Made by a program: the position numbers and the translations under genes. From assembly GCA_023231165.1 (NCBI GenBank), contig JALNVY010000002.1:1-45433 (forward strand): DNA of 45,433 bases, in the 5' to 3' direction. The stretch comes from Syntrophales bacterium (GTDB lineage Bacteria; Desulfobacterota; Syntrophia; Syntrophales; UBA8958). Shown here in pieces: positions 25,595 through 45,433 of the stretch. The notes beneath the pieces are model-generated. The model searched no databases, was not told the DNA's origin, and worked only from the letters and a program-made list of their open reading frames with translations. The stretch's first letter is position 1; every line of letters starts with the position of its first letter.

Positions 25595-25607
25595 TCGGTA
25601 ATTGACG

Positions 25608-26657: not shown

Positions 26658-27113
26658 TTAGAACCACTCATCGGGTGAATCCTTTTCGGTGGAACCCTTT
26701 GATGGACTGTTCATCCAGGCATCGACCGCCTGTGCGATGGTCAGTCTGTTGACCCCTTTTTTAGAAGGTTCGGTTTGTATGGGAGGCTTGGGAGAAGGGG
26801 GAGGGGGAAGGGGTTGCTGCTGCCTTCCTGTCCTCAACGAGCTGGAGTTTGACCAACCGTTTTCCGGAATCCATTCCCGAACCACCTGATAGCCCTTTGC
26901 GATTTTCTTATTCACCATCTCAGCAAGGACTCTTTCGGGAAACGATCGTTTTAAATCAACCCTCTTACTCTGGTTGATCTGGGATATCTTTCCCCAGTGT
27001 ACATTTACGGTACTGAAAGTTCGGAATCCAACCCAGGCCTTGCCGCCGGAAACCGACGGCGCCTGAAGCCAGACACCATATTCACACCCGGGAGGGGGAG
27101 TTGGTGTTGACAT
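26658..27113 (-). CDS. WGR-domain-like protein with Pro-rich C-terminal part, ends in SPDEWF
   Basis: ATG 27113 with AAAGGGGG SD. VNVHWGKISQ...RSFPERVLAEMVNKKIAKGYQVV fits the WGR pattern (WGRiG ... KGY). Confidence 0.65.
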   Translation of the reverse strand: MSTPTPPPGCEYGVWLQAPSVSGGKAWVGFRTFSTVNVHWGKISQINQSKRVDLKRSFPERVLAEMVNKKIAKGYQVVREWIPENGWSNSSSLRTGRQQQPLPPPPSPKPPIQTEPSKKGVNRLTIAQAVDAWMNSPSKGSTEKDSPDEWF

Positions 27114-27128
27114 GTGAGCCACCCCCTT

Positions 27129-28055: not shown

Positions 28056-28111
28056 GATACTTTCCTCCTTAATAGGTAATTTATTGGATTTATTATTGTG
28101 GTTGGTGAGTT

Positions 28112-29140: not shown

Positions 29141-29170
29141 TTTGTTGCCTCCTTCTCCTTTGATTTCATC

Positions 29171-29292
29171 GGTAATTGCGTCAGCCCTTCGCAGGACGTA
29201 AAAAAGCCGCACCTGTCCCGTTGTAAAGCGGTTCAGCCATGCGGCTATGTTCGTGACCTACTAAAAATACTAACTGTCTAAGTAATACTTCT
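29171..29292 (-). repeat. Leader element copy B upstream of the primase-like gene, in the divergent region with the T4CP-like gene
   Basis: About 85% identical to 11374-11494. Same order: AGAAGTATTA box, TAGTATTTT, 30-nt invariant block, hairpin plus U-tract, GNRA mini-hairpin. Confidence 0.7.
29199..29245 (-). terminator. Intrinsic-terminator-like hairpin plus U6 inside leader copy B
   Basis: Minus-sense GCCGCAU..(same internal structure)..GUGCGGC followed by UUUUUUA. Confidence 0.45.
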
Positions 29293-29329
29293 AATAGAAC
29301 AGAAAAATGAAGCAGAAGGAGGGAATATT

Positions 29330-32890: not shown

Positions 32891-35800
32891 TTATTGATCT
32901 ATTCTCTCCTCCTCAGCGCCGTTCTTGCCCAGGCCCATGCGGTATTTGATGTCGTAATTGATGATGAAGTCCAACTCCTCGTGGGTAAAGCCGTAATGTT
33001 CGGCCAGGAGCTTGTCGATCTCGTCGATGATGGGTTTGGATTTCATCGCATTGAGTTCATCATATTCAATGACATGTCCCTCTTTTGTGACGATTTTCTT
33101 TCTATTACTATTTGTCCTCAAGTCGTAAGACAACCTTTCTTCGAGGTCTTTCCATTCAGTATTGCCTATACTATCAGGAATAGGGAACCATTTTACAAAG
33201 CTATCATTAACATGTTCACAATCGGCAAGCGAACTATAGAAAAGATAAAATAGGGATGAATTTAATAGATTGACTGCGAATGATTTTTTGTCTTCATTTC
33301 GAAAAGATATGGTCCTGCCGTGTGCAGGAGCTATTTCTTGATCATTTTTCTTGAAATAAGGGTAACCAGAACAGGCCTTAATCCAATATCTGCATGCTTC
33401 CTGGTAATAAACGAGCGCGGTTGAATACTTTGAAATATGGTCTGAAAGAGAAATGCTATTCTTGAGAACATTTCTAAAGATCATCAACGCTGTGTTATTA
33501 CCAATTTTTGCAATTCTATGCTTATTCACATGAACATTATGTTCACATATTTGAACGCAATCTATGGCATGGGTTCTTTCTTGAGTATAAAATCGGCAAA
33601 TTCTGGAACTAAATATTCCAGATTTGATGGTTGGGATAGACAAAATAATTGCAACAGGCATTTCTACACCATCAAACATAGATTCTGGACGTCGCGGGAA
33701 TGACGCGACAATAACTGAACTTCGCTTGATCAGCATATCCTGCAACGAAGCCATATTCTCGGATGTTATAGATGTCAATTGAACGATGAGGCTGACATTT
33801 GCAGAATTCGTTGCTATTTGGAAAGATCGGTCAAAAACATAAGCAAAAAGGTTTTTGCTATCGAAAGTCTTATAATTATTAGCGATTAATTTGTAGCCAT
33901 GTTTAGCTTCGGAATATACTACGTATGGTGGATTTCCGATAATCACATCAAACCCGCCGTGGCCGTGAACAATCTCGTAAAATTCGGCAAACCAGTGGAA
34001 GGGCCGGTGGGTGGTCCTCCAGTCTGAAAACTTTACTTTGGCGTAATGCTGTTTGTGCAGGAGCACATCCAGGGCATGGGTTAGCTTTTCCAACCGTGCG
34101 TTCAGGTTGTCTTTGGCGGTTCTGAAATCCCCATAGACCGTGCTTCCGGTAAGTTGGATCTCCTTGTATCGCGTAAAGGCCCGCGCCACGATACCACACT
34201 TCTCTTCAATTTTCTCGACGTCATCGTCGAAATCCAGCATACTCGACTTATTGCCGAAAAACGCCTCTTTGATCTGGGCTTCCGTCGCATACCCGATCAG
34301 CGTGTTCCCGACGCGAATATTGAAATCCACATCGGGCAATGGTTCCAGTCCCAGATTGGGTTTGCGGTAGTCAGCGTCGACTGTGGCCGCAAGCTTGAGG
34401 AAGAGGCGCAGCTTGGCGATTTCCACGGCCTCGTTCATAATGTCCACGCCGTAGAGGTTGTTCAGAATGATGGATTTGTAGATAAAGTAGGCCTGATTGG
34501 GGTGCTGTTCATTCTGGACTTGTGCCAGGGTTTCCCGGAAGAACTTGTATTTATGGCCGAAGGTCTTTTTCTCGACCGCATTGGCCCGGTCCTCGTCCTC
34601 CACATAGGCCCGCATCCGGAGTAGACAGGTCTCGTAAAGGGGTTCCAGAATGTTCATCGCCGCAAAGAGAAAGGCCCCCGATCCACAGGTCGGATCGAGG
34701 ATGGTCGCCTTGCAGAGGGCCTTGTAGAAGTGACGGATAAAGTCGGGGTCGGCGATGTTTTCCAGGAGGTCTTGGGCAAACTGGCGGATGTTCAGGTTAC
34801 AGGTGATGAAGTCGTTGATGTTTGTTATGTCGCCGTCGGTGATTTTCCGGCTAAGATCGGCGCACCGTTTGCGGCGCTCGATAAGCTCGCGATAGATCTC
34901 TGTAGGGAGCCCGATGTCCGAAGGGGCCGATTTGTTCCAATCCTTACGCAGATCGCATAGGTAAGGACCCGTGCCGTCCACGACCCGCTCTGCTAATTCA
35001 GGGTCAAAACCTTTCTTTATTTCCGGGGGTAGATCGTCAAACAATTTCTCTGTGTCGGGGACGCCTTTCTTGACAGCGTCATAGATGTAGTCGTTGCCGC
35101 TTTCCCGAACCATGCTCCAGACCGGCCCGTCGGCCTTGAAGCCGATTGGATGGCTGCGCTTCGTTTCATCGAAGAGAAAGGGGATGATGCAGTTCCTGCC
35201 GATATAGTCGGTGATGTCTTCTTTGGTGTAGTAGGCCCCCATCTGGGAGCGATCGTTGATGTATTTCTCAAAGATATAACCGATGACATCGGGATTGACG
35301 TCCTTTCCGGAAGATTCGGCGCGGGTGTCCAGATACCAATTGAACTCGTCGAAAAAGGCAAAAAGACGCTCAAAGGCCGTGTCGTCGATGTCAAGATCCC
35401 GGTTCAGTTTTTCAAGCTCGTGTTCGTCGAAGAGGCCGCCGTTCAGGTAAGGTACATTGCCGATTTCCACGGTCAGTTCCTTGCTATGCGCAGGCGAACC
35501 AAGGCCCTGGTGAAAGAGGACGAGCAAGAAGGCGCGGTAGAAGGAGTAGAATTTACCCTTTCCTTTTTGTTCCCCGCAGGCCTTGAGCTTGTCCTGAAGG
35601 TAGTTGCGGTTGTTGTCCAGAAAACCTTTCTTCTGGATGAAGTAGCAAAACATGAGGCGGTTGAGCATGAGCGAGGCGTACCATTCCCGGTCGCCCTGGG
35701 CTTGTATCCCCTTGATGAATCCGAGAAACGCGGTGTGCTCCTTCTTGAAGCCCTCGTAGAATTTTTTTGTGACCTTTTCGTTATTCTGTTGGAAATTCTT

Positions 35801-36262
35801 AGCTACGCGGCCCGTCACATCCACAATGGTGATCCTGTCTTCCTCGTCTAAGGTAAAAAACAGGCCGCTTGCCCGCTGATAGAGAAGCTCCGGGCTCTGT
35901 TCTTTCTTGTAGCGGGTTTCCGTGACTTTGGTGGGTTTTCCCGTCTGACGGACGGCCAACTGCCAGACCTGTTCGGTTTGGGCCGTATCGATGTAGATAA
36001 TCAGATGTTCCTGAAATAGTTTGGTCACACTTTGTTCGACCTTCTTGCGCATAGCGTAATCGGGAATCCTGCCTTGCGCATCCGGCTCGCACAAAAGAAT
36101 TTTAAAGCCGCTTTTTTCCACGACCGATTCGAGTACGAATGTGGATTCGTCCACGGCGATGGGTTGTTTGATCCGGTCGTTGTTCCAGCCCATGTCGATG
36201 AAGAGCTCTTTGAATCTGAAGGCTTTGATGTAGGCACTGAAAGCATCTTTGGAAAGGTTCAT
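32891..36262 (-). CDS. Large gamma-class N6-adenine DNA methyltransferase (Eco57I/type IIG-like architecture)
   Basis: 1123 aa. Motif I ILDPTCGSGAFLF, motif IV VIIGNPPYV. The long C-terminal specificity-like region ends HEELDFIINYDIKYRMG. Start overlaps the helicase stop (ATGA). Confidence 0.9.
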   Translation of the reverse strand: MNLSKDAFSAYIKAFRFKELFIDMGWNNDRIKQPIAVDESTFVLESVVEKSGFKILLCEPDAQGRIPDYAMRKKVEQSVTKLFQEHLIIYIDTAQTEQVWQLAVRQTGKPTKVTETRYKKEQSPELLYQRASGLFFTLDEEDRITIVDVTGRVAKNFQQNNEKVTKKFYEGFKKEHTAFLGFIKGIQAQGDREWYASLMLNRLMFCYFIQKKGFLDNNRNYLQDKLKACGEQKGKGKFYSFYRAFLLVLFHQGLGSPAHSKELTVEIGNVPYLNGGLFDEHELEKLNRDLDIDDTAFERLFAFFDEFNWYLDTRAESSGKDVNPDVIGYIFEKYINDRSQMGAYYTKEDITDYIGRNCIIPFLFDETKRSHPIGFKADGPVWSMVRESGNDYIYDAVKKGVPDTEKLFDDLPPEIKKGFDPELAERVVDGTGPYLCDLRKDWNKSAPSDIGLPTEIYRELIERRKRCADLSRKITDGDITNINDFITCNLNIRQFAQDLLENIADPDFIRHFYKALCKATILDPTCGSGAFLFAAMNILEPLYETCLLRMRAYVEDEDRANAVEKKTFGHKYKFFRETLAQVQNEQHPNQAYFIYKSIILNNLYGVDIMNEAVEIAKLRLFLKLAATVDADYRKPNLGLEPLPDVDFNIRVGNTLIGYATEAQIKEAFFGNKSSMLDFDDDVEKIEEKCGIVARAFTRYKEIQLTGSTVYGDFRTAKDNLNARLEKLTHALDVLLHKQHYAKVKFSDWRTTHRPFHWFAEFYEIVHGHGGFDVIIGNPPYVVYSEAKHGYKLIANNYKTFDSKNLFAYVFDRSFQIATNSANVSLIVQLTSITSENMASLQDMLIKRSSVIVASFPRRPESMFDGVEMPVAIILSIPTIKSGIFSSRICRFYTQERTHAIDCVQICEHNVHVNKHRIAKIGNNTALMIFRNVLKNSISLSDHISKYSTALVYYQEACRYWIKACSGYPYFKKNDQEIAPAHGRTISFRNEDKKSFAVNLLNSSLFYLFYSSLADCEHVNDSFVKWFPIPDSIGNTEWKDLEERLSYDLRTNSNRKKIVTKEGHVIEYDELNAMKSKPIIDEIDKLLAEHYGFTHEELDFIINYDIKYRMGLGKNGAEEERIDQ

Positions 36263-39200
36263 TCGGCATGCTCCGTTTTGAGGCCAAGCGAGCAGATGAT
36301 CTGAGGATCGCGGATTTCCGGCTCATCGTCGCTGGTAATGCAAAGCTTGGCTTCTTCTCTCAAGGATGTCACTAGTTCCGCCAGTTGCTCGTCCGAAACA
36401 CCGGCCTTAAGTTGGCGGCTCAAGGTGTCGCGGGCGAATTCTTTGAGGGGGTATTTATAGATGTCATCTACGGCCCGTTTGAGGGGCTCCGTCATAAACA
36501 ATGTGCCGTCGTATTCCTTGCAAAATCGGTCCAGACGCATGTACACGCGATATTTGACCCCTGTTTTCTTCCCCAGCGTTCCGCCTTGATTCTTCTCTTC
36601 TTCCCGAATTAACGCCATGCTCGACTTGACGATATCATGATGATTTTCCAGCCGTTCAACGGGCGGTGTATGGGTATGGCATTCCGCAACTTTCAGGATA
36701 GCCAGTTGGGATTGGGTAATCAACTGCCCTTTGGCATCCATCCAGGTCAACACGTCATTGTCTTCTACAGTACGGGTATAGACGATCACGCCGTCTTTGC
36801 CGGGAAAAGCGGTAGTGGCCTTTGTGGAATAGACGACATTCGGCATGTCGGGAATCAGTTTGGTGAGCGCCGGGTTTGCATCCGTGGCGTTTTTCCAGAT
36901 CTGATAGGCATAGGAGGCCAGGTCCACTTCATTGTCGTCATCCTCGTCCAGAATGCCCGACTTCTCACTGTAAAGATCGTGGATGCTTACAGGATCGCCG
37001 TCAAAGAACACCTCATCGGAACCGACCACCTCGGCGTTTTCCGTGATCCGGCGCTGGAGTCTGCCGCGAAGCCGGATAATCCGCTCAATGCCGTCGGCGG
37101 GCAGGAATGAATAGCAGAGAATTTCCTGAGACTTCTGACCGATACGATCCACACGACCCGCTCTCTGGATCAAACGGATGATCGCCCAAGGCAGGTCGAA
37201 GTTGACGACGATATGGCCGTCCTGCAAATTCTGCCCCTCGCTGAGGACATCAGTGGTAATTAGAACGCGCAGATCTTGACCTGTTCGGGTGATTTCATGT
37301 TTTTCATTGCTTTCAGGGCTGAACCGATGGGCGAGTGCGGTCGGGTTGTCATTGTCGCCGGTGACGCATTCGATCTTCGTTACACCCATTGCCTTCATGT
37401 GGATGGTCAGATATTCCGCCGTGTCTGCATATTGGGTGAAGACGAGCACCTTTTCGTCCCGGTGCTTCTCTTCAAGGAGTCGATGAAGGGATAGTAACTT
37501 CTGATCTTTTGCCGGGTCCCATGGACCGGCCATTTTCAGGATCTTGATGATTTCCCAACCGTCGCTAATCAGTTCTTTCATTAGGTCCTTGGCAAACAGG
37601 GCGGAACGAATCCACTCAAATCGGTTCTTATGCGCCCCTGCGAATAGTTCGTAGACTTCCTTACCCTTTTTCAGATATGCGCTTTCATCCATGAGAACCT
37701 GAAAACCGGGATCGTCGTCGTCCGTATCCTGATCTTCCAGAAAGTCATCCAGATTATCTATGATGTTCTTCCCGATCGGTAGAGGGAGATTGTTCTCGAT
37801 GGCATGGATGAAGACAAAATTCCGAAGAACATGCCGTGCCAGGGACAACTGGAAGGCGAAACCGGAGCTCTCTAGGCGTTTGAAGAGGTTTGTACGGCAA
37901 AACCCCATGAGCCGCTTGCCCGCCCGTGAAAGGTTGGCGATGATTCTTTCTTCTTCAGCGCTTGTCTTGTCTACCGGCTTGGGGTCCAGGTAATTGGCAA
38001 GGCCATATCTGGGCAGATCGAGATGGTTAATCCGGTTCACCACACCATCGGAATAGAGCCGGGCGTATTGGTCATTGGTGTCTTTCTCGTCGAAGGCAAA
38101 CACCACCTTTCTGGGGATGCGGTCCGGAAAATAGGAACGCTTGCCGTTTTTGAAGGTGAGAAACCGCCGCCCTGTTTCGGAGTCCAGTGAAGAATAGTGT
38201 GTGCGAACAAAACTTCTCGTTCTCCGGACCAGATACAGGCGCATCAATTCACGCCAGTCATCGGCATGATTGCTTTTTTCAAAGGCCTTGACACTGCGGA
38301 TGAATGTTTCCGTGTGTCTGGCGAGGAATTGAACCTGCCCCCCGATGGTGTTGATGTAATGCTCGGGAGAAATCCCAAGGTCTTTGTCGTCGGAAAGGAA
38401 CAAGCGTAGCTGGTTGGAAAGATCGGTGTATGACTTGTTGTATGGTGTTGCCGAAAGTAAAACCACCTTGCTTTCATTCTCCTCAAGGTAGTTTTTTATC
38501 GCCCGATAACGGCTTCCCTGATCATTTCTGAGGTTGTGGCTTTCGTCGATGACGACCAACCGGTAGCGCCGCAGGTTGGGCAGGGTGGACTGAACCATGC
38601 TCTGGGAAATAACCTTGGCGCGCAGTTGGTACTTGTGGGCGTAACCTTCCCACATATCCTTCAGGTTCTTAGGGCAGATGATTAAGGTCTCGAAATAGAA
38701 ATCTTCTTCACAAAGTTTGGCAATGGCGGTTGCGATGATGGTTTTGCCCAAACCGACCACATCACCGATCATCACCCCATCTCGTTTATTCAAGTGATGA
38801 ACCGCGACGAGTACCGCTTTTTTCTGAAAATCCAGAAGTTCGTCCTGGAATATTTTCGGCAGTTTGAATTCGCTAATGCCAGCTCTGGCCTCTTGTGACA
38901 AGTGATAAGCCATTTTCAGGTAGATATGATAGGGTGAAACCGGCTTTTCCGCAGCCCAGCTTGTATCGATGATTTCAATCAGTTCCTGGGTTATATCGAG
39001 ACACCAGCGGTCATTCCAGCGGTCATCAAACCATCTTGCCAGTTTATTTGCTGCATCTTGTTCCAGCACATCGACATTCAATTCTCCCTGTTTAGAAAGC
39101 CCAGCAAGGGTGAGGTTACTGCTGCCGACAAACCCGACTACGGGAACGCGGGCATCTTCACTATAAGCAAGGTATAGTTTGGCATGCAACGGATGTCTTG

Positions 39201-39621
39201 AATGGAGTTTGACAACCGTCTTTCCTTCACTCATCTGCTTGCTGAGATGTCGAAGCGCGGCTTCATCCGCGCTGGAAGGTATGCCGATTGTCAATTGTTC
39301 TCGAAAATCACGGGCGAGCTTCTTTTTGATCTTCACGACTTCAGATTGGTCGATAGTGTCCGATTTGATATCGCGATATTGTTCCCTCACACTTTCAACG
39401 GGATTTTTCTGCATGCCCACCAGAAGTCGGCAGTACCGTTGCACTTGATCCTTGCTTTCAACAATCCAGTCACCTGGGAGACACTCGATTTCAGTATGGA
39501 TTTCTTTCCACCCACGCAGATTAAAGTAACCAACACAAAAGTCGGCCCGTGAGGAGAGTTTTAAGGTTTCTTTTAAACCATCGGTCAGCACTTTGGTTAT
39601 ATTATCATAGATCGTCGGCAC
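36259..39621 (-). CDS. PLD-family nuclease domain fused to an SNF2-type helicase
   Basis: 1120 aa. GTG start with AGGAGAG SD. N-terminal HAKLYL..GFVGSSNLT (HxK..GSxN). Helicase motifs GDVVGLGKT, VVIDESHNLRN, LLSATPYN, TDVLSEGQNLQ, LIQRAGRVDRIGQ. Confidence 0.9.
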   Translation of the reverse strand: MPTIYDNITKVLTDGLKETLKLSSRADFCVGYFNLRGWKEIHTEIECLPGDWIVESKDQVQRYCRLLVGMQKNPVESVREQYRDIKSDTIDQSEVVKIKKKLARDFREQLTIGIPSSADEAALRHLSKQMSEGKTVVKLHSRHPLHAKLYLAYSEDARVPVVGFVGSSNLTLAGLSKQGELNVDVLEQDAANKLARWFDDRWNDRWCLDITQELIEIIDTSWAAEKPVSPYHIYLKMAYHLSQEARAGISEFKLPKIFQDELLDFQKKAVLVAVHHLNKRDGVMIGDVVGLGKTIIATAIAKLCEEDFYFETLIICPKNLKDMWEGYAHKYQLRAKVISQSMVQSTLPNLRRYRLVVIDESHNLRNDQGSRYRAIKNYLEENESKVVLLSATPYNKSYTDLSNQLRLFLSDDKDLGISPEHYINTIGGQVQFLARHTETFIRSVKAFEKSNHADDWRELMRLYLVRRTRSFVRTHYSSLDSETGRRFLTFKNGKRSYFPDRIPRKVVFAFDEKDTNDQYARLYSDGVVNRINHLDLPRYGLANYLDPKPVDKTSAEEERIIANLSRAGKRLMGFCRTNLFKRLESSGFAFQLSLARHVLRNFVFIHAIENNLPLPIGKNIIDNLDDFLEDQDTDDDDPGFQVLMDESAYLKKGKEVYELFAGAHKNRFEWIRSALFAKDLMKELISDGWEIIKILKMAGPWDPAKDQKLLSLHRLLEEKHRDEKVLVFTQYADTAEYLTIHMKAMGVTKIECVTGDNDNPTALAHRFSPESNEKHEITRTGQDLRVLITTDVLSEGQNLQDGHIVVNFDLPWAIIRLIQRAGRVDRIGQKSQEILCYSFLPADGIERIIRLRGRLQRRITENAEVVGSDEVFFDGDPVSIHDLYSEKSGILDEDDDNEVDLASYAYQIWKNATDANPALTKLIPDMPNVVYSTKATTAFPGKDGVIVYTRTVEDNDVLTWMDAKGQLITQSQLAILKVAECHTHTPPVERLENHHDIVKSSMALIREEEKNQGGTLGKKTGVKYRVYMRLDRFCKEYDGTLFMTEPLKRAVDDIYKYPLKEFARDTLSRQLKAGVSDEQLAELVTSLREEAKLCITSDDEPEIRDPQIICSLGLKTEHAE

Positions 39622-39990: not shown

Positions 39991-41037
39991 TCAACGTTTA
40001 AATGGCTTGGCCTTGTTAAATTTTGGAATGATCAGCGCATAGGTGTCACCCCAGTAATTTTTTGCTTTGACGGAGATTTTTTGTTTCGTTAAAATGTCCC
40101 CACTGCTGGTCTCCCACCAAGACAAATCTTCCATAGCGTCGGCAGACTCAGCTTTGCCGCTGTGAACGGTATAAATTACCGAATGCTCAGGTACACGCAT
40201 ATTTTCATGAATTAAGATACCCTGCTCCTTTGCTGCCTCGTTCGGAGTGACTTTTATGGCACGTAAAACTGGAATCGGAAGCGTACTGAAATCAAAGCTA
40301 TGTTGAGCCGCTAGTTGTCTGCTTTCTGATTTCTTTAGCCCCTTTTTACACAGTACCAACAAACATGGTTCCGGCCATGCTTTAACAATGCCGATGAGAG
40401 AGGCCAAATTACTCGCCTCTGGACACAGAGTTTGCCTCAGGGTTTCGATTTGTTCAAAGGAAATTTCTCCCTTGATGAGCGGCTTTACAAAAGGATTATA
40501 GAATCCGAATTTTCCGGCAATGAGATCGATTACGACTTCCTCGGGGTCTTTATTAGAAAGATGCACGGTTCTCATAAAACATAAGCGTGACTGATCCGTG
40601 AGAATAAGTAGGTGAGCCACCTCATGCCATTTTGTAAAATATGCCCTTGCAGCATTACTCCCCCTGCAATCAATTATGGAAACAAATTCAGGTTCCCAAG
40701 GTTCTCTCTTTGATCTGCGGTATGTTATACCTAGCACTTCATCAGAAAATTCATGATCGATGGTTGCGAATATCTTTTCCCCCTGCTTTAAATATTTTGC
40801 TTTAATGGCAGCAAGATCGTCGTCGCTGTGAATTTCCTCGAAAGATGTATCAAGCTTACCGGCTACCCAGCATAGAAAATCAGACAACGAAGGGCAGTCA
40901 ATAGCTTCCTTCAGAAATTTCTTGATTCGTTTTTCACAAAAGTTCAGGATATCTGAGACAGGATTATTACTTGATCTGATACCTAAATCTTTGGCTAATC
41001 TCCAAATTTTTGTTGACTGATTTAATCTCGTGGCCAC
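39991..41037 (-). CDS. ImmA/IrrE-family (DUF955) zinc metallopeptidase with extra N- and C-terminal domains (CapP-like)
   Basis: 348 aa. The GTG start directly follows the XRE stop (TAAGTG). YFTKWHEVAHLLI is the HExxH motif. Confidence 0.75.
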   Translation of the reverse strand: MATRLNQSTKIWRLAKDLGIRSSNNPVSDILNFCEKRIKKFLKEAIDCPSLSDFLCWVAGKLDTSFEEIHSDDDLAAIKAKYLKQGEKIFATIDHEFSDEVLGITYRRSKREPWEPEFVSIIDCRGSNAARAYFTKWHEVAHLLILTDQSRLCFMRTVHLSNKDPEEVVIDLIAGKFGFYNPFVKPLIKGEISFEQIETLRQTLCPEASNLASLIGIVKAWPEPCLLVLCKKGLKKSESRQLAAQHSFDFSTLPIPVLRAIKVTPNEAAKEQGILIHENMRVPEHSVIYTVHSGKAESADAMEDLSWWETSSGDILTKQKISVKAKNYWGDTYALIIPKFNKAKPFKR

Positions 41038-41442
41038 TTATTTAAATGCCTCCTTTATGGCTTCATGGAATTTTTTCCAACCATCAACCGTCAACTCCTT
41101 GCGATATTTCGTGCCCCTTCTGGCAACGACTGAGTTGAACGTACTTAACAGATCGAGCGTAGCGCTATAGCTAAGCCCCAATTCTTCTGCCGCCTCGGAT
41201 AATTCCTGGGGAATGATAATTTGATCAGTTTTTGCGTTCTCCGTAACTCTTCCCGCGAGTAAATAATCAACAGAAGCCCCTAACTCATTGGCGAGTCTCA
41301 ATATGCCCTGTGAGCCAATGTTCGTTTTATCATTCTCGACATCACTTAAAAAACCTTTGCTCATCCCAGCCTTCTTGGCGAGTTCTTCCTGAGTCAGGTT
41401 TCTTTTTTCTCTAATTTCCCGGATTCTCTTACCTGTGGTCAA
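41038..41442 (-). CDS. XRE-family HTH repressor (CapH/ImmR-like)
   Basis: TTG start at 41442 with GGAGGAG SD 7 nt upstream. GKRIREIREKRNLTQEELAKKAGMSKGFLSDVENDKTNIGSQGILRLANELGASVDYLL. The upstream 72 codons of the track ORF run through the promoter region. Confidence 0.8.
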   Translation of the reverse strand: MTTGKRIREIREKRNLTQEELAKKAGMSKGFLSDVENDKTNIGSQGILRLANELGASVDYLLAGRVTENAKTDQIIIPQELSEAAEELGLSYSATLDLLSTFNSVVARRGTKYRKELTVDGWKKFHEAIKEAFK

Positions 41443-41504
41443 TTTTTCTCTCCTCCAACCATGTAGCGTGTTAGTTCTGTATACAAGAACATGGTAACGA
41501 AATG

Positions 41505-41548
41505 CAAGAAATATATTTCTTGACAGATCAAAAATAGTTCGATATACA
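41505..41548. promoter_or_regulatory. 18-bp perfect palindromic operator overlapping divergent promoters
   Basis: CAAGAAATATATTTCTTG (41505-41522). Plus-strand TTGACA (41520-41525)-17 nt-TATACA (41543-41548). Minus-strand TTGCAT-18-TATACA starts at the other palindrome edge. Confidence 0.55.
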
Positions 41549-41597
41549 GTATCAAACATCGCGTATAGCGAAATAATAAAGACGGAGGAAATTTTAC

Positions 41598-41780
41598 ATG
41601 GCAAAAAACGCTCCTTACGGAGACGGCCACAGGCACGGTCAGGTAACAGACCGTTCACAGACGTATAACCCCAAGAATGATCGCTGGACCAAAAGGGACA
41701 CAGATACTGGAAGGTTTATCGATCAGAAAGCTGATGAAAATCCATTTAAAGGTGTCCGAAAAGAAAAACAGGAGGAATAA
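41598..41780 (+). CDS. Small basic hypothetical protein, first gene of the Ubl operon
   Basis: 60 aa with GGAGGAA SD. Sequence ..NPKNDRWTKRDTDTGRFIDQK... Confidence 0.5.
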   Translation: MAKNAPYGDGHRHGQVTDRSQTYNPKNDRWTKRDTDTGRFIDQKADENPFKGVRKEKQEE

Positions 41781-41785
41781 CTCAA

Positions 41786-42067
41786 ATGAAAGAAGCACAT
41801 GAAAACCATCATGAAAACCAGGGCCATATTAAAAAGTACACCATTATCGTAAATGGCCGTGAGAAAACGGTGACTAAGAAAGAATTGTCATTTGCTGAGA
41901 TTGTCGCTTTGGCTTTTGAAAATCCTCCGACGGGTGAGAATATCATTTTCACCATCACATACAGGCGGGGTGAGGGCAATAAGCCCGAAGGAACCATAAT
42001 CGATGGGGAAACAGTTAAGATAAAAGAGGGAATGATCTTCAATGTCACAGCAACTGATAAATCGTAG
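41786..42067 (+). CDS. Ubiquitin-like beta-grasp protein of the 'multiubiquitin' type (single domain)
   Basis: 93 aa with AGGAGGAA SD. YTIIVNGREKTVTKKELSFAEIVALAF...IIFTITYRRG...IIDGETVKIKEGMIFNV. The C-terminus is ...TATDKS, with no Gly-Gly. Confidence 0.7.
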   Translation: MKEAHENHHENQGHIKKYTIIVNGREKTVTKKELSFAEIVALAFENPPTGENIIFTITYRRGEGNKPEGTIIDGETVKIKEGMIFNVTATDKS

Positions 42068-43238
42068 TAATGATTTAAAGCGTCTTCGAGATGAGGGTTA
42101 CGACGTAGTGGTTAAGGTTAACCACCTGCTGGTCAAGAATGTGCCGTATGTAAATTCCAATAAGGAGATCAAGTTTGGAGTTCTCGTTTCGGACTTGAGT
42201 TTGGCGGGTGATGTGACAATAACTCCCCGCAATCATGTTGCCTATTTCGCCGGAGAGCACCCCTGTAACAGGGATGGCTCAGAGTTGGCGAAAATCAAGC
42301 ATCAGAGCCAGCGACAGGAGCTTGATCGTGATCTTGTCATTGACCATTCATTTTCGAGCAAACCTGTTACGGGTGCTTACAAGGACTATCATGACAAGAT
42401 GACCACTTACGTAGCCATCATTTCTAGCCCCGCTCAGTCGATTGACCCCAGCGTCACAGCAATAACTTTTCCAGTTATTGAATCTGACCGAGAAGAATCT
42501 GTGTTTAAATATATCGATACGGCATCAAGTAGAGCTGAGATCAATGTTGTGACCAGGAAGTTAGAAGGCGGGGCGATCGGCATTGTGGGCCTGGGTGGTA
42601 CAGGCTCCTATGTGCTAGACTTGGTGGCCAAAACTCCCGTGAGAGAAATCCGCCTCTTTGACGGAGATAAATTTTCTCAACACAATGCGTTTAGATCGCC
42701 GGGCGCTCCATCGATTGAGGAGCTGAAGAAAGAAACCAAGAAGGTGGTCTACTTCCAGGACATCTATTCAAAAATGCATCGAAATATCATTGTCAATGGC
42801 GACTACATAGAGGCAGCGAACGTCAATCAATTAGAGGGACTAGATTTTGTATTCCTTTGCCTGGACAGCGGCGAGCCGAAAGGACTTATTGTAGAGAAAA
42901 TGGAAGCTCTTGGCATACCCTTCATTGATGTCGGCATGGGTGTGGAGCTCGTCGATAACGCCCTGCTCGGAATTCTCAGGGTCACGACCAGCACAGACGG
43001 AAAACGTGGTCACGTGAAGCAAAGGGCCTCTTTCTCTGATGGCGGAGACAACAAGGAATATTCCCGAAACATTCAGATTGCAGATCTTAACGCTCTGAAT
43101 GCGGCCTTGGCTGTCATCAAGTGGAAAAAGCTATGCGGGTTTTACAAAGATCTCGAAAATGAGCATCACTGTACGTATACTATAGATGGCAATATTCTGA
43201 CCAATGAGGAGCAATGTGAAGCGCAAAATATCGCTTAA
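42042..43238 (+). CDS. E2-like N-terminal domain fused to a ThiF/E1-type adenylyltransferase
   Basis: 398 aa. E1 Rossmann motif IGIVGLGGTGSYVLDLVAKTPVREIRLFDGDKFSQHNAFR. N-terminal ~150 aa carries an EHPCNRDG loop. 26-nt overlap with the Ubl gene. Confidence 0.8.
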   Translation: MSQQLINRSNDLKRLRDEGYDVVVKVNHLLVKNVPYVNSNKEIKFGVLVSDLSLAGDVTITPRNHVAYFAGEHPCNRDGSELAKIKHQSQRQELDRDLVIDHSFSSKPVTGAYKDYHDKMTTYVAIISSPAQSIDPSVTAITFPVIESDREESVFKYIDTASSRAEINVVTRKLEGGAIGIVGLGGTGSYVLDLVAKTPVREIRLFDGDKFSQHNAFRSPGAPSIEELKKETKKVVYFQDIYSKMHRNIIVNGDYIEAANVNQLEGLDFVFLCLDSGEPKGLIVEKMEALGIPFIDVGMGVELVDNALLGILRVTTSTDGKRGHVKQRASFSDGGDNKEYSRNIQIADLNALNAALAVIKWKKLCGFYKDLENEHHCTYTIDGNILTNEEQCEAQNIA

Positions 43239-43662
43239 ACATGAATTTGTCGAATATATTCCCGATAAACTGAAGGACGGGACTGTTTACGTGTCGATAG
43301 CTTTCTCAACGGTGGTGCACAAATGCTGCTGTGGATGTGGGAACGAGGTTATCACCCCGCTTTCTCCAACTGATTGGAAGCTAATCTTCGACGGCCAGTC
43401 TATTTCTCTCTATCCGTCTATTGGAAACTGGAATTTCGCGTGCCGGTCCCACTACTGGATTGAATGCAATATTGTCAAGTGGGCTCCGCAATGGTCACAA
43501 GAGAAGATTAAAGCCGGCAGAACCAATGATGCTTTCGTCAAAGAAAAATACTTCGGCGGAACCATTGGCAAGATCGTTCATGAAAAGATTGCTGATGCAC
43601 GGATAACAAAAGGCAAACCGAAAGAGAGCTTTTGGCAGACCATCAAGAAATGGTTGTCTTAA
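43204..43662 (+). CDS. Cys/His-rich small protein (DUF6527-like from memory), putative zinc-binding partner
   Basis: 152 aa. HKCCCGCGNEVITPLSP...NFACRSHYWIE. 35-nt overlap with the E1 gene. Confidence 0.65.
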   Translation: MRSNVKRKISLKHEFVEYIPDKLKDGTVYVSIAFSTVVHKCCCGCGNEVITPLSPTDWKLIFDGQSISLYPSIGNWNFACRSHYWIECNIVKWAPQWSQEKIKAGRTNDAFVKEKYFGGTIGKIVHEKIADARITKGKPKESFWQTIKKWLS

Positions 43663-43748: not shown

Positions 43749-44672
43749 CTATAAGGTTTTCTGTATGATCCAGTTTGAAAGTCCTGCTGCTACTGCAAGC
43801 TGTGAAATCTTTTCGATAGTTAATATCTGAGCCTTATCTGGAATTTTCCAGGTAGAAATGTCGCCGCGAGGGCTATGAACAACAAAAAACATTTCATGGT
43901 ATTGGTCTAACGTTTCGAAAATATCACAGTACTCTTTAAATGTCTTTGTGTCCGCCTGCGATTTAATCTGAACAAATGCCTTCTTACCAGACACAGGCAA
44001 GAACAGATCTAAATCAATAGATTTTTCTGTTCCGCCTACGGCAGAAACTCGCTGCCAGCCGGAACGGGTAAAAATCAAATCACAAAGCAGCTCGAAATCC
44101 TTCCAGCCAAGTGAGCGAATCATTTCTTCTAGTGATTTTTCGAGTGAAGACAAGCACTGCTTCGCGTTTAGCACTTCAGGTGCAATCTCTCCGTTGATTC
44201 TCCTTATTAAGTATTCCTCTTCTTCGACAGAACAAATCGTACCTCGGAATCCTTTTGTCTTTGTGAGCTTCCCGCTCAAATTCTCAATCAAAAGTTCTTC
44301 ATCCATGATACTCTTGCTCTTCCATTTTCCAACGACGCAACGTGACCGCGTCCCGTCCGCTAATAATCTTACCTCGGGATATGCGAAGCACCAGTAAAGA
44401 CGACGACGATAAAATGTAATCCAAAGTGTATCTTGGCCCAAAGTATAGAAATCCTTTATCTGGTTTGTTATTCCTGTAGCCTTGCTTTTGGTCTTCTTTT
44501 GAGCCCAATAAGCACGCAAGACAGCCCAATTCCTTTTTAGGCATTCCTCATGATGGGGATTAATGAACCCAAGTCGAATGAAAGGATTCGCTCCTTCAAT
44601 ACAGTCGGGCTCCCACCGGCCTTTGCTGCCAAGCTTGATAAAGCGAACGGACTTTGGTTTTATTTTTTGCAT
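43749..44672 (-). CDS. Mrr-type (PD-(D/E)xK) restriction endonuclease-like protein with an uncharacterised N-terminal domain
   Basis: 307 aa. C-terminal WKDFELLCDLIFTRSGWQRVSAVGGTEKSIDLDLFL..KKAFVQIKSQ fits the Mrr catalytic core (FE..L..G...D.D...VQxK). Confidence 0.65.
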   Translation of the reverse strand: MQKIKPKSVRFIKLGSKGRWEPDCIEGANPFIRLGFINPHHEECLKRNWAVLRAYWAQKKTKSKATGITNQIKDFYTLGQDTLWITFYRRRLYWCFAYPEVRLLADGTRSRCVVGKWKSKSIMDEELLIENLSGKLTKTKGFRGTICSVEEEEYLIRRINGEIAPEVLNAKQCLSSLEKSLEEMIRSLGWKDFELLCDLIFTRSGWQRVSAVGGTEKSIDLDLFLPVSGKKAFVQIKSQADTKTFKEYCDIFETLDQYHEMFFVVHSPRGDISTWKIPDKAQILTIEKISQLAVAAGLSNWIIQKTL

Positions 44673-44941
44673 TTCGCTTAACCCCTCTTAGAAGGACTCT
44701 TAAAAATTTCTTTGTTGTTGATCATTGTGGAATGAAATCTATACTTGCCTATGTGCTAAGTCAACTCTTGATTACAGTACCGAGCGGATCTGCTCCAAAA
44801 GGGAGAACTTCGCTTTCAGATGTATGCGCACTTTCGAATGGGATTCATTGGCTGCCCGAATTTACCTATGTGAGGACTTGTATTGTATGCCGTGGAAAAC
44901 GTATGACTTATCGGTTAAAGTCCGATCATGGGAGTTCGGTA

Positions 44942-45433
44942 GTTCGCCCATGTAGCTTGAGGGAGGTGTTAAGGGTAACCTGAAACGCTAAGTTCCCTGA
45001 CAAAGGCTCCTTAAGGGAGTCGAGCAAAGCTGCGGGTCGCAGCGCAAGCGAACCCAGACGTAGCCTCGAAATTCACAATGGAGTTGTCGACCCCGTAATA
45101 CAAGGGGGAAGACCGGAGCATCTATCCTGACGAAAACTACCAGAACCGATAGATGGGCTTCCGGGGTAACAGGGGTGACACGCAGTGGCAGCCATGCGAC
45201 AATAAACACGGGAGACCCTTGTCGATGCCCTACAGGAGGGCAACCGGTAGATATAAGGAAACGAAACTCTACGGGGTCGGCAGGGGAGTCGGAGTTGCCC
45301 ATATTACCGCTTGTATCCCAAGGACAGCATAACCTTGGGAGAGGGAAGGGGCAATACTTTTATCACGTTTCAGAAGAAGTAAAGGAAAGGGGATTGCACG
45401 GAAGTGCTGAAAACTCCAGATAACATCCGGGAA
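44942..45433 (+). mobile_element. 5' part of a probable group II intron (ribozyme domains I-III plus start of the RT ORF), truncated by the window end
   Basis: GC-rich, stem-rich non-coding stretch. GTTCGCCCATGTAG..GGGAGGTGTTAAG resembles the canonical 5' GUGCGCCCAGAUAGGGUGUUAAG. An ORF with an RT-like N-terminus starts about 460 nt downstream. The 5' boundary is uncertain. Confidence 0.5.
45404..45433 (+). CDS. N-terminus of a probable intron-encoded reverse transcriptase (partial)
   Basis: GTG start 10 nt after AAGGAAAGGGG and preceded by an in-frame TAA. Encodes MLKTPDNIRE, compare the ..L.(S/T)P.NL..A.. N-termini of group II IEPs. Runs off the window. Confidence 0.4.
   Translation, partial: MLKTPDNIRE

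What the first reader, a model, noticed from the sequence alone, without database searches (positions are those of the whole stretch)
39991..43662. Ubiquitin-like conjugation operon (Ubl, E2-E1 fusion, Cys-rich partner, no deubiquitinase) wired to a protease-repressor switch
SEEN, the plus-strand operon 41598-43662 (reading frames overlap by 26 and 35 nt):
- A 60-aa basic protein.
- A 93-aa protein with a single beta-grasp 'multiubiquitin'-type pattern. It ends ...TATDKS rather than Gly-Gly.
- A 398-aa protein with a ThiF/E1 Rossmann motif (GLGGTGS...RLFDGDKFSQHNAFR). A ~150-aa N-terminal domain precedes it, and its EHPCNRDG loop recalls the HPN..C loop of E2/UBC folds.
- A 152-aa Cys/His-rich protein (HKCCCGCG...ACRSHYW).

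SEEN, the divergent regulators:
- An XRE HTH gene (TTG start, GGAGGAG SD) is immediately followed (TAAGTG) by an HEVAH metallopeptidase of the ImmA/IrrE type.
- A perfect 18-bp palindrome (41505-41522) overlaps the -35 boxes of both predicted divergent promoters.

ESTABLISHED:
- Bacterial E1/E2/Ubl operons (CBASS Cap2/Cap3, Bil) act in antiphage defence.
- XRE plus IrrE-like peptidase pairs (CapH/CapP, ImmR/ImmA) derepress operons after DNA damage or ssDNA sensing.

INFERENCE:
- This is an inducible protein-conjugation system of the poorly characterised multiubiquitin / fused E2-E1 class.
- The lack of any JAB-type protease and of a Gly-Gly terminus suggests unusual maturation or chemistry.
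- The Cys-rich protein could be an E3-like adaptor or the substrate.
Basis: partly seen in the sequence, partly recalled or inferred. Interest (0 to 1): 0.8.

Follow-up and report, generated by a model that had tools for sequence, protein, structure and literature searches.

The report
Known Bub ubiquitin-like operon, damage-inducible
This is a new copy of an already described bacterial ubiquitin-like protein-tagging system (Type II "Bub"), sitting on a conjugative element under a DNA-damage-type repressor/protease switch; it is ordinary for its kind, apart from a small conserved gene of unknown function wedged between the switch and the operon.

Summary

**What it is.** The plus-strand genes are a Type II Bub operon (formerly "6E.2"; Ye et al. 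2024, PMC11601596):
- BubA, a single beta-grasp Ubl.
- BubBD, an E2-E1 fusion.
- BubE, a DUF6527 protein.

The divergent pair is a CapH/DdrO-like XRE repressor plus an IrrE/CapP-like metallopeptidase. This pairing with 6e.2 operons was published in 2022.

**Three corrections.**
- The Cys-rich 152-aa protein is not an E3 or a substrate. It is BubE, the family's Ser-His peptidase with a C4 zinc site, so the operon does have a deconjugase.
- The E2 nucleophile is the invariant Ser105, not the Cys of the EHPC loop. That Cys is Phe in a distant homologue.
- The ...TDKS end of BubA is the family norm (80/80 related loci). The solved, biochemically active E. coli ZDHYS365 BubA ends the same way.

**What is new.** The 60-aa first cistron (PADLOC PDC-S38, phrog_12550) is not a Bub component; only 2 of 80 Bub loci carry it. 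It is a strongly conserved stand-alone gene that often sits next to XRE/M78 regulator pairs, upstream of varied defence cargo. Its function is unknown.

**Verdict:** new member of a known kind.

The parts
39991..41037 (-). IrrE/PprI/CapP-like zinc metallopeptidase, 348 aa. It has H138-E139-x-x-H142 and invariant E166/E167, a C-terminal GAF/PAS-like domain, and about 55 extra N-terminal residues relative to IrrE.
   Evidence: - Motifs invariant in 21 homologues.
- The family has 376 clusters, none with a Pfam annotation.
- PADLOC capP 2.3e-4.
- AF2 model pLDDT 87, pTM 0.81.
- Foldseek PDB: the only hits at E <= 1e-3 are Deinococcus PprI/IrrE (8slm, 8sln, 3dti, 3dte; 1e-6 to 2e-5, about 325 aligned columns), followed by PAS/GAF domains.
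41038..41442 (-). CapH/DdrO/ImmR-type XRE repressor, 134 aa, TTG start with a GGAGGAG Shine-Dalgarno. It has an N-terminal HTH and a C-terminal oligomerisation/cleavage domain.
   Evidence: - HTH_3 2e-15.
- PADLOC capH 4.6e-11.
- PDB sequence hits: ImmR 7t8i 3e-7; DdrO 6jq1/6rnx aligned over residues 4-114 at 1e-6; CapH NTD 7t5u 1e-6.
- Gene calls of 134 aa on three of the four identical contigs.
41505..41522 (.). Perfect 18-bp palindrome CAAGAAATATATTTCTTG, the presumed repressor operator.
- It overlaps the -35 TTGACA (41520-41525) of the operon promoter, whose -10-like TATACA is at 41543-41548 (17-nt spacer).
- It also overlaps the -35-like TTGCAT (41507-41502) of the repressor promoter, whose -10-like TATACA is at 41483-41478 (18-nt spacer).
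   Evidence: - Sequence.
- Unique in the window, against 0.235 expected per window.
- Outer half-sites CAAGA(A)/(T)TCTTG and the TTGACA are conserved in two loci with 72-84% identical repressors.
- No further copies in the window above chance.
- Promoter boxes are read from the sequence and were not returned by the consensus scan.
41598..41780 (+). First cistron: a 60-aa basic, hydrophilic protein of unknown function (PADLOC PDC-S38, phrog_12550). It ends 5 nt before bubA.
   Evidence: - PDC-S38 5e-32; phrog_12550 1e-19.
- 785 clusters at 90% identity and 1238 at 50%, all stand-alone.
- Differences by codon position 955/740/2917, indicating purifying selection.
- Present in 2/80 Bub loci.
- Next to a Peptidase_M78 ORF in about 25 of 64 deduplicated loci.
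41786..42067 (+). [quoted passage not shown]
   Evidence: - Multi_ubiq 7.7e-23.
- PDB 9cd2 (E. coli ZDHYS365 Ubl3, third beta-grasp domain) 4.4e-14, with the same ...TDKS end.
- C-terminal Ser in 80/80 related loci.
42042..43238 (+). BubBD: an E2-like domain (DUF6791, residues about 1-140; S105, K107, H65) fused to a ThiF/E1 adenylation domain (GxGGxG 183-188, R218, crossover-loop Y340, no Cys in the loop).
   Evidence: - Pfam DUF6791 and ThiF.
- NCBIfam NF004805 4e-183, above its cut-off.
- 53% identity to E. coli BubBD.
- Invariants in 84 relatives.
- Foldseek top hits are the Citrobacter BubCD E1 domain (9eav and others, about 4e-9), then UBA5, ThiF, MccB and Cap2.
43204..43662 (+). BubE: a DUF6527 Ser-His peptidase with a C4 zinc site (C41, C43, C45, C80; S72, H83) and a C-terminal amphipathic tail ...SFWQTIKKWLS. 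The alternative start is GTG at 43216.
   Evidence: - DUF6527 5.5e-24.
- Precomputed Pfam label 'BubE'.
- RefSeq names the E. coli homologue 'ubiquitination-like system serine protease family protein'.
- Residues conserved in 81 relatives.
- The tail is shared with the E. coli protein.

Best explanation
[quoted passage not shown] It is carried as cargo in the defence region of an integrative conjugative element.

**Proposed working**
1. In the resting state a dimer of the 134-aa XRE repressor sits on the 18-bp palindrome. The palindrome overlaps the -35 boxes of both divergent promoters, so the repressor shuts off both its own operon and the Bub operon.
2. The 348-aa IrrE-like metallopeptidase senses single-stranded DNA, a by-product of DNA damage or phage replication. 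It cuts the repressor in its C-terminal domain, near V105-V-A-R-R-G110 by alignment with the DdrO cleavage site. The repressor then leaves the DNA.
3. One transcript is made: the 60-aa gene, then bubA, bubBD and bubE, the last three translationally coupled by 26- and 35-nt overlaps.
4. A BubBD dimer adenylates the C-terminal Ser93 carboxylate of BubA (R218 and the Rossmann site). BubA passes to Tyr340 of the crossover loop as an oxyester, then to Ser105 of the E2 domain (helped by K107 and H65), and finally to lysines of target proteins.
5. BubE (zinc site C41/C43/C45/C80, dyad S72/H83) removes BubA from targets and limits the reaction.

**Basis of each step**
- Shown here: family membership and conservation of every named residue.
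- Taken from published work on homologues: steps 2, 4 and 5.
- Inferred: the operator and promoter assignment, the cleavage site, and any biological role in antiphage defence, inter-element conflict or stress response.
For: **Domain content and order.**

**BubBD**
- 53% identical to E. coli BubBD.
- S105, H65, R218 and Y340 are invariant in 84 relatives, and K107 is K in 81 and R in 3.
- The E1 domain's best structural matches are Citrobacter BubCD chains.

**BubA**
- Matches the solved ZDHYS365 Ubl at 4e-14 with the same C-terminus.
- C-terminal Ser in 80/80 loci.

**BubE**
- Zinc and dyad residues are conserved in 81 relatives.

**Core operon**
- bubA-bubBD-bubE is present in 80/80 genome loci from more than 20 phyla.

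**Regulators**
- In 53 related Bub loci, 30 upstream ORFs are Peptidase_M78 and 28 are HTH_3.
- The repressor aligns full-length with DdrO.
- The peptidase model matches IrrE/PprI only.

**Operator**
- The palindrome is unique in the window and its half-sites are conserved.

**Literature**
- Bub biochemistry: PMC11601596.
- CapH/CapP mechanism and its association with 6e.2 operons: bioRxiv 10.1101/2022.04.27.489752.
- ssDNA activation: 10.64898/2026.05.16.725639.
Against: - The UBC fold of the N-domain could not be confirmed independently. The AF2 model is mediocre (mean pLDDT 62; N-domain 68-89). The whole-chain fold search was dominated by E1. A 71-sequence N-domain profile found nothing in PDB sequences.
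- The peptidase is missed by Pfam Peptidase_M78, and the PADLOC capP hit is weak. TM-scores to IrrE are only 0.28-0.43, with large rmsd.
- The two promoters have non-consensus -10 boxes and were not returned by the scan.
- No Bub operon has yet been shown to protect against phage (PMC11601596), so the biological purpose is open.
- Nothing was tested experimentally for this locus.
Confidence: 0.85

Rival explanations
1. The system would be a conjugation pathway with no deconjugating protease. The Cys/His-rich 152-aa protein would act as an E3-like adaptor or as the substrate. The EHPC loop would supply a catalytic cysteine, and the non-Gly C-terminus would need unusual maturation.
For: - Cys75 is conserved in 83/84 BubBD relatives, next to invariant Pro74, just after the fourth beta-strand where E2s carry HPN.
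- No JAB/JAMM domain is present in the operon.
- Ye et al. themselves listed a Ubl-transfer role (as in E2 enzymes) for BubE as an alternative before testing peptidase activity.
Against: - BubE homologues cleave BubA fusions and erase conjugates in cells, dependent on the Ser-His dyad. The dyad and zinc ligands are conserved here.
- Cys75 is Phe in the Ferribacterium homologue, whose operon is otherwise intact.
- Ser105 is invariant, and the equivalent Ser is required in E. coli BubBD.
- The C-terminal Ser lies directly before the stop codon in 80/80 loci and in the active E. coli BubA.
Confidence: 0.07
2. The XRE/peptidase pair would be the immunity switch of the conjugative element itself, ImmR/ImmA-like, controlling excision and transfer. 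On this view it lies next to the Bub operon only by chance.
For: - The window is an ICE-like element with TraG, TraH, a coupling protein and DUF3150.
- The best PDB sequence hit of the repressor is ICEBs1 ImmR.
- In L093 the same regulator pair sits next to a serine recombinase, in the int-immA-immR <-> xis arrangement.
Against: - Roughly half of 53 related Bub loci in many phyla carry an HTH plus M78 pair immediately upstream.
- The pair is divergent from, and shares a 155-nt promoter region with, the Bub transcript.
- No other copy of the operator exists in the 45 kb window, including near the transfer genes.
- No integrase is adjacent in the window.
Confidence: 0.05
3. The operon would be a ThiF/ThiS- or MoeB/MoaD-like sulfur-carrier or small-molecule activation pathway, not a protein-conjugation system.
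For: - By sequence, the closest non-Bub relatives of the E1 domain are TcdA, ThiF and UBA5.
- Some source annotations call homologues 'tRNA A37 threonylcarbamoyladenosine dehydratase'.
Against: - ThiF and TcdA NCBIfam scores are far below their cut-offs (27 against 275 bits).
- The carrier lacks the Gly-Gly end typical of ThiS/MoaD sulfur carriers (established knowledge of those families; not checked with a tool here).
- An E2-like domain and a BubA-directed peptidase are fused or linked in 80/80 loci.
- Homologues form protein conjugates in vitro and in cells.
- The genomic context is a defence island rather than a biosynthetic cluster.
Confidence: 0.03

Closest known systems
Type II Bub (6E.2) operon of E. 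coli ZDHYS365 and the E. coli ES2 locus (Ye, Gong, Chambers & Corbett 2024, PMC11601596; PDB 9cd2)
   Same: - Same gene order bubA-bubBD-bubE, with no JAB peptidase.
- BubBD is 53% identical to the ES2 protein.
- Same F-S-x-K-P serine motif, adenylation Arg and crossover Tyr.
- BubA ends ...TDKS, like ZDHYS365 BubA.
- BubE shares the HxCCCGCG...PS(I/V)GNW...CRSHY core and the ...WLS tail.
- It sits on a mobile element.
   Different: - BubA here has one beta-grasp domain (93 aa) instead of three.
- The locus has a divergent repressor/peptidase pair and an extra 60-aa first cistron. The E. coli ES2 locus shows neither.
- The host element is an ICE in an uncultured bacterium.
Type I Bub (6E.1) of Citrobacter sp. 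RHBSTW-00271 (PDB 9ea4, 9ea5, 9ea8, 9eae, 9eav)
   Same: - Its E1 adenylation domain is the best structural match of the window's E1 domain.
- Same tyrosine/serine oxyester logic and the same BubE family.
   Different: - Type I fuses Ubl to E2 (BubAB) and a JAB peptidase to E1 (BubCD). Its Ubl ends in Gly after processing, and His+Asp accompany the E2 serine.
- The window has a free Ubl, an E2-E1 fusion and no JAB. Lys+His accompany the serine, and the Ubl ends in Ser with no processing.
CapH/CapP regulators of CBASS and other defence operons (Lau et al. 2022 preprint; Calloji et al. 2026 preprint)
   Same: - An XRE repressor plus an HExxH peptidase with a GAF-like domain, encoded divergently from the regulated operon.
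- Already reported next to 6e.2 ubiquitin-like operons and DUF3892 genes.
- PADLOC capH 4.6e-11.
   Different: - The peptidase belongs to a separate, unannotated family of about 340 aa: no Pfam M78 hit, capP only 2.3e-4, and about 55 extra N-terminal residues.
- A Cys at H142+11, the position analogous to the cysteine switch, occurs only in the closest subclade.
Deinococcus DdrO/IrrE (PprI) radiation-response switch
   Same: - The only solved structures matching the peptidase model at E <= 1e-3.
- The repressor aligns with DdrO across both domains, including the region of the DdrO cleavage site.
   Different: - DdrO/IrrE controls a chromosomal DNA-repair regulon through the RDRM motif (from my own knowledge of that system; not checked with a tool here).
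- Here there is a single local operator of different sequence, controlling a mobile-element cargo operon.
Bil (BilABCD) and CBASS Cap2/Cap3 conjugation systems
   Same: Bacterial E1/E2-based conjugation linked to defence islands. Cap2 is also an E2-E1 fusion, and weak PADLOC E1-E2 hits fall on the Rossmann region.
   Different: - Those systems use catalytic cysteines and JAB/JAMM peptidases.
- CBASS has no separate Ubl.
- The window proteins match the Cap2 models only at 1e-7 or weaker, and only over the nucleotide-binding region.

Membership tests
Type II Bub operon (6E.2) | Ubl (BubA) with at least one beta-grasp 'multiubiquitin' domain | tested here: met
   - Pfam Multi_ubiq 7.7e-23, residues 18-91.
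- phmmer hit to the solved ZDHYS365 Ubl3 beta-grasp domain 3, 4.4e-14.
Type II Bub operon (6E.2) | E2-E1 fusion BubBD: an N-terminal BubB/DUF6791 domain plus a ThiF-type adenylation domain | tested here: met
   - DUF6791 2e-60 and ThiF 8e-12.
- NF004805 609 bits against a cut-off of 352.
- 53% identity over 389 residues to E. coli BubBD.
- E1 fold matches BubCD, UBA5 and ThiF.
Type II Bub operon (6E.2) | The N-terminal domain adopts a (diverged) UBC/E2 fold | tested here: inconclusive
   - The AF2 N-domain (pLDDT 68-89) has helix, four strands, loop, beta-hairpin, long helix. That is compatible with UBC.
- The fold search returned only E1 matches, and the N-domain profile found no PDB sequence.
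- Support therefore rests on Pfam and on the published AlphaFold 3 and mutagenesis data for a 53%-identical homologue.
Type II Bub operon (6E.2) | No Cys, but an invariant Tyr, in the E1 crossover loop; adenylation Arg present | tested here: met
   - Y340 and R218 are identical in 84/84 relatives.
- Residues 300-345 of the window protein contain no Cys.
Type II Bub operon (6E.2) | Invariant E2 Ser accompanied by Lys and His | tested here: met
   - S105 84/84; K107 is K in 81 and R in 3; H65 84/84.
- Which Lys and His the paper means is inferred from conservation, not from its figure.
Type II Bub operon (6E.2) | BubE: DUF6527 with a C4 zinc site and a Ser-His dyad | tested here: met
   - DUF6527 5.5e-24.
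- C41/C43/C45 are each identical in 80/81 relatives; C80, S72 and H83 are identical in 81/81.
Type II Bub operon (6E.2) | No JAB/JAMM peptidase in the operon | tested here: met
   No JAB hit for any of the operon proteins in Pfam, NCBIfam or PADLOC.
Type II Bub operon (6E.2) | ATP-dependent BubA conjugation through oxyester intermediates; BubE deconjugation | not testable with these tools
   This is biochemistry. It has been shown only for the Citrobacter and E. coli homologues.
CapH/CapP (DdrO/IrrE, ImmR/ImmA) regulator pair | XRE HTH repressor with a C-terminal oligomerisation domain that carries the cleavage site | tested here: met
   - HTH_3 2e-15; capH 4.6e-11.
- Alignment to DdrO over residues 4-114 of 134.
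- The cleavage site itself is only inferred.
CapH/CapP (DdrO/IrrE, ImmR/ImmA) regulator pair | HExxH...E zinc metallopeptidase domain followed by a linker and a GAF domain | tested here: met
   - H138, E139, H142 and E166/E167 are invariant.
- The model at pLDDT 87 matches IrrE/PprI over about 325 columns at 1e-6, then PAS/GAF domains.
- Sequence-profile membership in Pfam Peptidase_M78 is not met, and PADLOC capP is weak.
CapH/CapP (DdrO/IrrE, ImmR/ImmA) regulator pair | Encoded upstream of, and divergent from, the regulated operon, sharing its promoter region with a conserved repressor site | tested here: met
   - Divergent arrangement with a 155-nt shared region.
- Unique palindrome overlapping -35.
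- Half-sites conserved in L093 and L094.
CapH/CapP (DdrO/IrrE, ImmR/ImmA) regulator pair | Internal cysteine-switch loop (present in about one third of CapP proteins) | tested here: inconclusive
   C153 lies 11 residues after H142 (Thauera CapP: C113, 13 residues after H100). It is present only in homologues at or above about 69% identity; elsewhere the position is A, S, T, K, N or Y.
CapH/CapP (DdrO/IrrE, ImmR/ImmA) regulator pair | ssDNA-stimulated cleavage of the repressor and derepression after DNA damage | not testable with these tools
   Needs a cleavage assay and a reporter.

The most novel reading that the evidence does not exclude
The 60-aa first cistron (PDC-S38 / phrog_12550) may be an undescribed third component of CapH/CapP- and DdrO/IrrE-type damage-sensing cassettes.

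- It is a strongly conserved, stand-alone, basic protein.
- It is the first gene expressed when the repressor is cut.
- It travels with the regulator pair in front of interchangeable defence cargo: Bub, CBASS, restriction-modification, DUF3892, and Tn7-like elements.
- Possible roles: tuning or locking the switch (anti-repressor, ssDNA or RecA modulator), or acting as a small effector in its own right.

The papers on Bub and CapH/CapP that I read do not mention it.
Probability: 0.3. Interest if true: 0.55.

Novelty: new member of a known kind. Interest (0 to 1): 0.3.

Why it matters
The core finding matters little on its own. The operon class, its oxyester chemistry, its peptidase and its link to CapH/CapP regulators were published between 2022 and 2024, and RefSeq already names the proteins.

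Its value is as a clean, compact example:
- It has a one-domain Ubl with a ready-made C-terminal Ser.
- It has an intact regulator pair with a perfect operator, and it sits on an ICE.
- It could serve for the experiments the field still lacks, namely what Bub conjugates to and what it protects against.

Two by-products may be useful to specialists:
- The regulator peptidase belongs to an IrrE-like family of about 376 clusters that no profile library annotates. Regulated defence operons are therefore probably under-counted.
- A roughly 57-aa gene family (1238 clusters at 50% identity, in bacteria and phages) repeatedly sits between such regulator pairs and their defence cargo. It has no assigned function.

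Tried and rejected
1. **UBC fold of the N-domain.** The whole-chain Foldseek search returned only E1 matches. A 71-sequence N-domain profile against PDB sequences gave nothing.
2. **Cys75 of the EHPC loop as the catalytic residue.** Rejected: it is Phe in L086, while Ser105 is invariant.
3. **The 60-aa protein as a Bub subunit or substrate.** Rejected as a general component: 2/80 Bub loci carry it, and only 4-5 of 127 small-gene loci carry Bub.
4. **Function of the 60-aa protein.**
   - No Pfam, NCBIfam or PDB similarity.
   - PHROGs gives only an 'unknown function' family.
   - No informative domain fusions among the 150 listed best hits, all stand-alone proteins of 51-181 aa, out of 1238 representative clusters.
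   - An excisionase-like role was considered because of the L093 arrangement, but recombinases are upstream neighbours in only 3 of 64 loci.
5. **The Mrr-like 307-aa gene (43749-44672) as part of the system.** Rejected: 0/80 Bub loci and 0/127 small-gene loci carry it.
6. **Additional operator copies elsewhere on the element.** None above chance.
7. **Sequence-profile link of the peptidase to solved structures.** None. Only the fold comparison worked.
8. **Terminator or promoter consensus scans in the region.** Counts were at chance level and the proposed promoters were not listed.

Full report
**1. Observation**

  - a 60-aa ORF at 41598-41780;
  - a 93-aa ORF at 41786-42067 ending ...TATDKS;
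  - a 398-aa ORF at 42042-43238;
  - a 152-aa ORF at 43204-43662;
  - on the other strand, a 348-aa HEVAH protein at 39991-41037 preceded by an XRE gene.
- The overlaps are 26 and 35 nt. The 26-nt overlap is dual coding: AAT GTC ACA GCA ACT GAT AAA TCG TAG encodes the end of the Ubl, and ATG TCA CAG CAA CTG ATA AAT CGT encodes the start of the next protein.
- The XRE start is the TTG at 41442, giving 134 aa. Three of the four independent gene calls on identical contigs agree.
- The palindrome CAAGAAATATATTTCTTG at 41505-41522 is perfect.
  - It is the only perfect 18-mer palindrome in the window.
  - First-order Markov random sequences built from the window give 0.235 per 45 kb, so about 8e-4 for the 155-nt intergenic region.

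**2. What the plus-strand genes are**

- Pfam assigns Multi_ubiq (7.7e-23) to the 93-aa protein, DUF6791 (2e-60) plus ThiF (8e-12) to the 398-aa protein, and DUF6527 (5.5e-24) to the 152-aa protein.
- A full-text search for DUF6527 led to Ye, Gong, Chambers and Corbett (bioRxiv 2024, PMC11601596). That paper renames the old "6E/DUF6527" operons Bub.
  - It defines Type II Bub as BubA (Ubl), BubBD (E2-E1 fusion) and BubE (DUF6527), typically without a JAB peptidase.
  - It reports that both types work through a Ubl~Tyr oxyester on the E1 crossover loop and a Ubl~Ser oxyester on the E2.
  - It reports that BubE is a Ser-His dyad peptidase with a C4 zinc site that removes conjugates.
  - It reports that 31% of 544 Bub operons carry CapH+CapP, and that no phage protection has yet been found.
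- RefSeq already annotates the E. coli homologues as "multiubiquitin domain-containing protein", "ThiF family adenylyltransferase" and "ubiquitination-like system serine protease family protein".

**3. Membership tests on the window proteins**

*BubBD*
- It is 53% identical to E. coli BubBD over 389 residues.
- It scores 609 bits on NCBIfam NF004805, whose cut-off is 352.
- A scan of one genome per species returned 80 loci in more than 20 phyla. All 80 carry bubA, bubBD and bubE in the same order.
- In an alignment of 84 BubBD sequences:
  - invariant: Ser105 (in F-S-x-K-P), His65, Arg218 (NAFRSPG) and Tyr340;
  - Lys107 is K in 81 and R in 3;
  - Ser106, the neighbour, varies, so Ser105 is the counterpart of the published S106.
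- Residues 300-345 contain no cysteine.
- The AF2 model is mediocre (mean pLDDT 62). Its E1 domain nevertheless finds Citrobacter BubCD first (about 4e-9), then UBA5, ThiF, MccB and Cap2.
- The E2 fold of the N-domain could not be confirmed independently. Its secondary-structure order is compatible with a UBC fold.

*BubA*
- It hits the crystal structure of the ZDHYS365 Ubl (9cd2) at 4.4e-14. That protein also ends ...TDKS.
- All 80 related BubA ORFs end in Ser directly before the stop codon, with consensus FNVTATDKS.

*BubE*
- It keeps C41, C43, C45, C80, S72 and H83. S72, C80 and H83 are conserved in all 81 relatives and the other three in 80.
- It shares the amphipathic C-terminal ...WLS tail with the E. 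coli protein.

**4.

- The "Cys-rich partner" is the deconjugating peptidase, so the operon is not protease-less.
- The EHPC loop does lie where E2s carry HPN. Pro74 is invariant and Cys75 is conserved in 83/84. However, Cys75 is Phe in the most distant homologue (Ferribacterium, L086), while Ser105 never varies.
- The non-Gly end is the normal, unprocessed end in the 80 related loci examined and in the E. coli homologues.

**5. The regulators**

*Repressor*
- It matches PADLOC capH at 4.6e-11.
- In the PDB it matches ICEBs1 ImmR, the CapH N-domain and Deinococcus DdrO, the last over residues 4-114 of 134.
- The region around the DdrO scissile bond aligns with V105-V-A-R-R-G110.

*Peptidase*
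- It belongs to a family of 376 clusters with no Pfam annotation at all.
- H138, E139, H142 and E166/E167 are invariant.
- Its AF2 model is good (pLDDT 87, pTM 0.81).
- The only PDB matches at E <= 1e-3 are Deinococcus PprI/IrrE over about 325 columns, followed by PAS/GAF domains.
- It is therefore an IrrE/CapP-type two-domain sensor peptidase, but a divergent one.

*How typical the pairing is*
- Upstream of bubA in 53 related loci, 30 ORFs are Peptidase_M78 and 28 are HTH_3. A repressor/peptidase pair is thus the rule for this clade.
- The 2022 CapH/CapP preprint already lists a "6e.2" ubiquitin-related operon with CapH/CapP.

*Operator and promoters*
- The palindrome's right arm runs into TTGACA (41520-41525). 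A TATACA follows 17 nt downstream.
- On the other strand TTGCAT (41507-41502) is followed after 18 nt by another TATACA.
- In two loci with 72-84% identical repressors, the outer half-sites, the TTGACA and the GTTC..TATACAG elements are conserved.
- The consensus scan did not return these promoters, and no second operator exists in the window.

**6. The 60-aa gene**

- It matches PADLOC PDC-S38 (5e-32) and phrog_12550 (unknown function), and nothing in Pfam, NCBIfam or the PDB.
- It is a real gene:
  - 785 clusters at 90% identity and 1238 at 50%; the listed members are stand-alone proteins of about 57 aa;
  - differences from 82 homologues fall 955/740/2917 on codon positions 1/2/3.
- It is not part of Bub. 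Only 2 of 80 Bub loci have it, and only 4-5 of 127 loci that have it carry Bub.
- Its neighbours, in 64 deduplicated loci with upstream sequence: 25 ORFs within 1.3 kb are Peptidase_M78 and 25 are HTH_3.
- Examples of the arrangement:
  - a fused HTH-M78 gene divergent from the small gene followed by Bub in Ferribacterium;
  - HTH, M78 and the small gene in a row in Geobacter;
  - an M78 gene, then the small gene followed by Tn7-like tnsABCD.
- L093 and L094 carry close relatives of the window's repressor, peptidase and small gene but no Bub. L093 has DUF3892-type cargo between two serine recombinases.
- Downstream genes are varied defence cargo: Eco57I-type methylases, ResIII helicases, SMODS/DncV cyclases, TIR, HsdR and Bub.
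- The small gene thus behaves as a frequent companion of the regulator cassette. Its function is unknown.

**7. Context**

- The window is a 72-kb metagenomic contig.
- It carries ICE transfer genes: TraG_N, TraH, a coupling protein, DUF3150 and CobT/VWA.
- It also carries a defence cargo block:
  - an Eco57I/MmeI-type methyltransferase;
  - an HKD-SNF2 helicase;
  - the Bub locus;
  - an Mrr-like gene;
  - a group II intron.

**8. Verdict**

The only unexplored element is the small first cistron and its association with XRE/IrrE-like cassettes.

Noticed in passing
window 44908-45047 (+): Group II intron domains 1-4 (Rfam RF02003, 88.9 bits, E 2e-18). On the longer contig an RVT_1/GIIM reverse transcriptase follows (L002 13363-14685), then a RES-domain gene.
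   Followed up: no
window 32891-39621 (-): Two 1120-aa-class genes overlap by 4 nt. One is an Eco57I/MmeI-type methyltransferase. The other is a PLD(HKD)-SNF2 helicase (PADLOC C3a139 'HKD+Snf2', 8e-60; also DrmD/BrxH-like hits). Together they are probably a separate defence system directly next to the Bub locus.
   Followed up: partly
window 17976-30679: ICE-type transfer and maintenance genes: TraG_N, TraH, a TraD/T4SS coupling protein, DUF3150, CobT/VWA, an AAA_5 ATPase and a Toprim/DnaG-like primase. The Bub locus is therefore cargo of a conjugative element.
   Followed up: partly
window 43749-44672 (-): A 307-aa protein with a weak Mrr_cat nuclease hit (1.7e-4), convergent with bubE. It has no relatives in 80 Bub loci or 127 small-gene loci, so it is not part of either module.
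   Followed up: partly
window 42042-42067 and L006-L085 (about 5001-5026): The 26-nt overlap between the BubA stop and the BubBD start is dual coding (…NVTATDKS* / MSQQLINR…). It is kept at the same length in nearly all 80 related loci. This may partly explain the extreme conservation of both termini.
   Followed up: partly
L093 1817-8066: Close relatives of the window's peptidase, repressor and 60-aa gene lie between two large serine recombinases, followed by small genes that include a DUF3892-type protein. The layout mirrors ICEBs1 int-immA-immR <-> xis.
   Followed up: partly
L090 2876-10174: In a Desulfovibrionaceae contig the 57-aa gene sits between an M78 peptidase gene cluster and a Tn7-like tnsA-tnsB-tnsC-tniQ/tnsD operon.
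   Followed up: no
L171-L212 (IMG/VR contigs): The 57-aa gene occurs in 42 viral or prophage contigs, often within a few kb of a contig end. In one recurrent group it lies just upstream of a convergent gene of about 1079 aa.
   Followed up: no
window 41473-41489 and 41537-41572: Further conserved elements lie in the shared promoter region: GTTC-N9-GAAC around the repressor -10, and TCGC-GTATA-GCGA in the operon leader. The second element keeps 3-4-bp complementary arms in two related loci, with changed arm bases in L094. These could be extra operators or an RNA hairpin.
   Followed up: partly
window 39991-41037 (-), residue C153: The peptidase has a Cys 11 residues after the second zinc histidine, roughly where CapP carries its cysteine-switch residue. 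It is present only in homologues at or above about 69% identity.
   Followed up: partly
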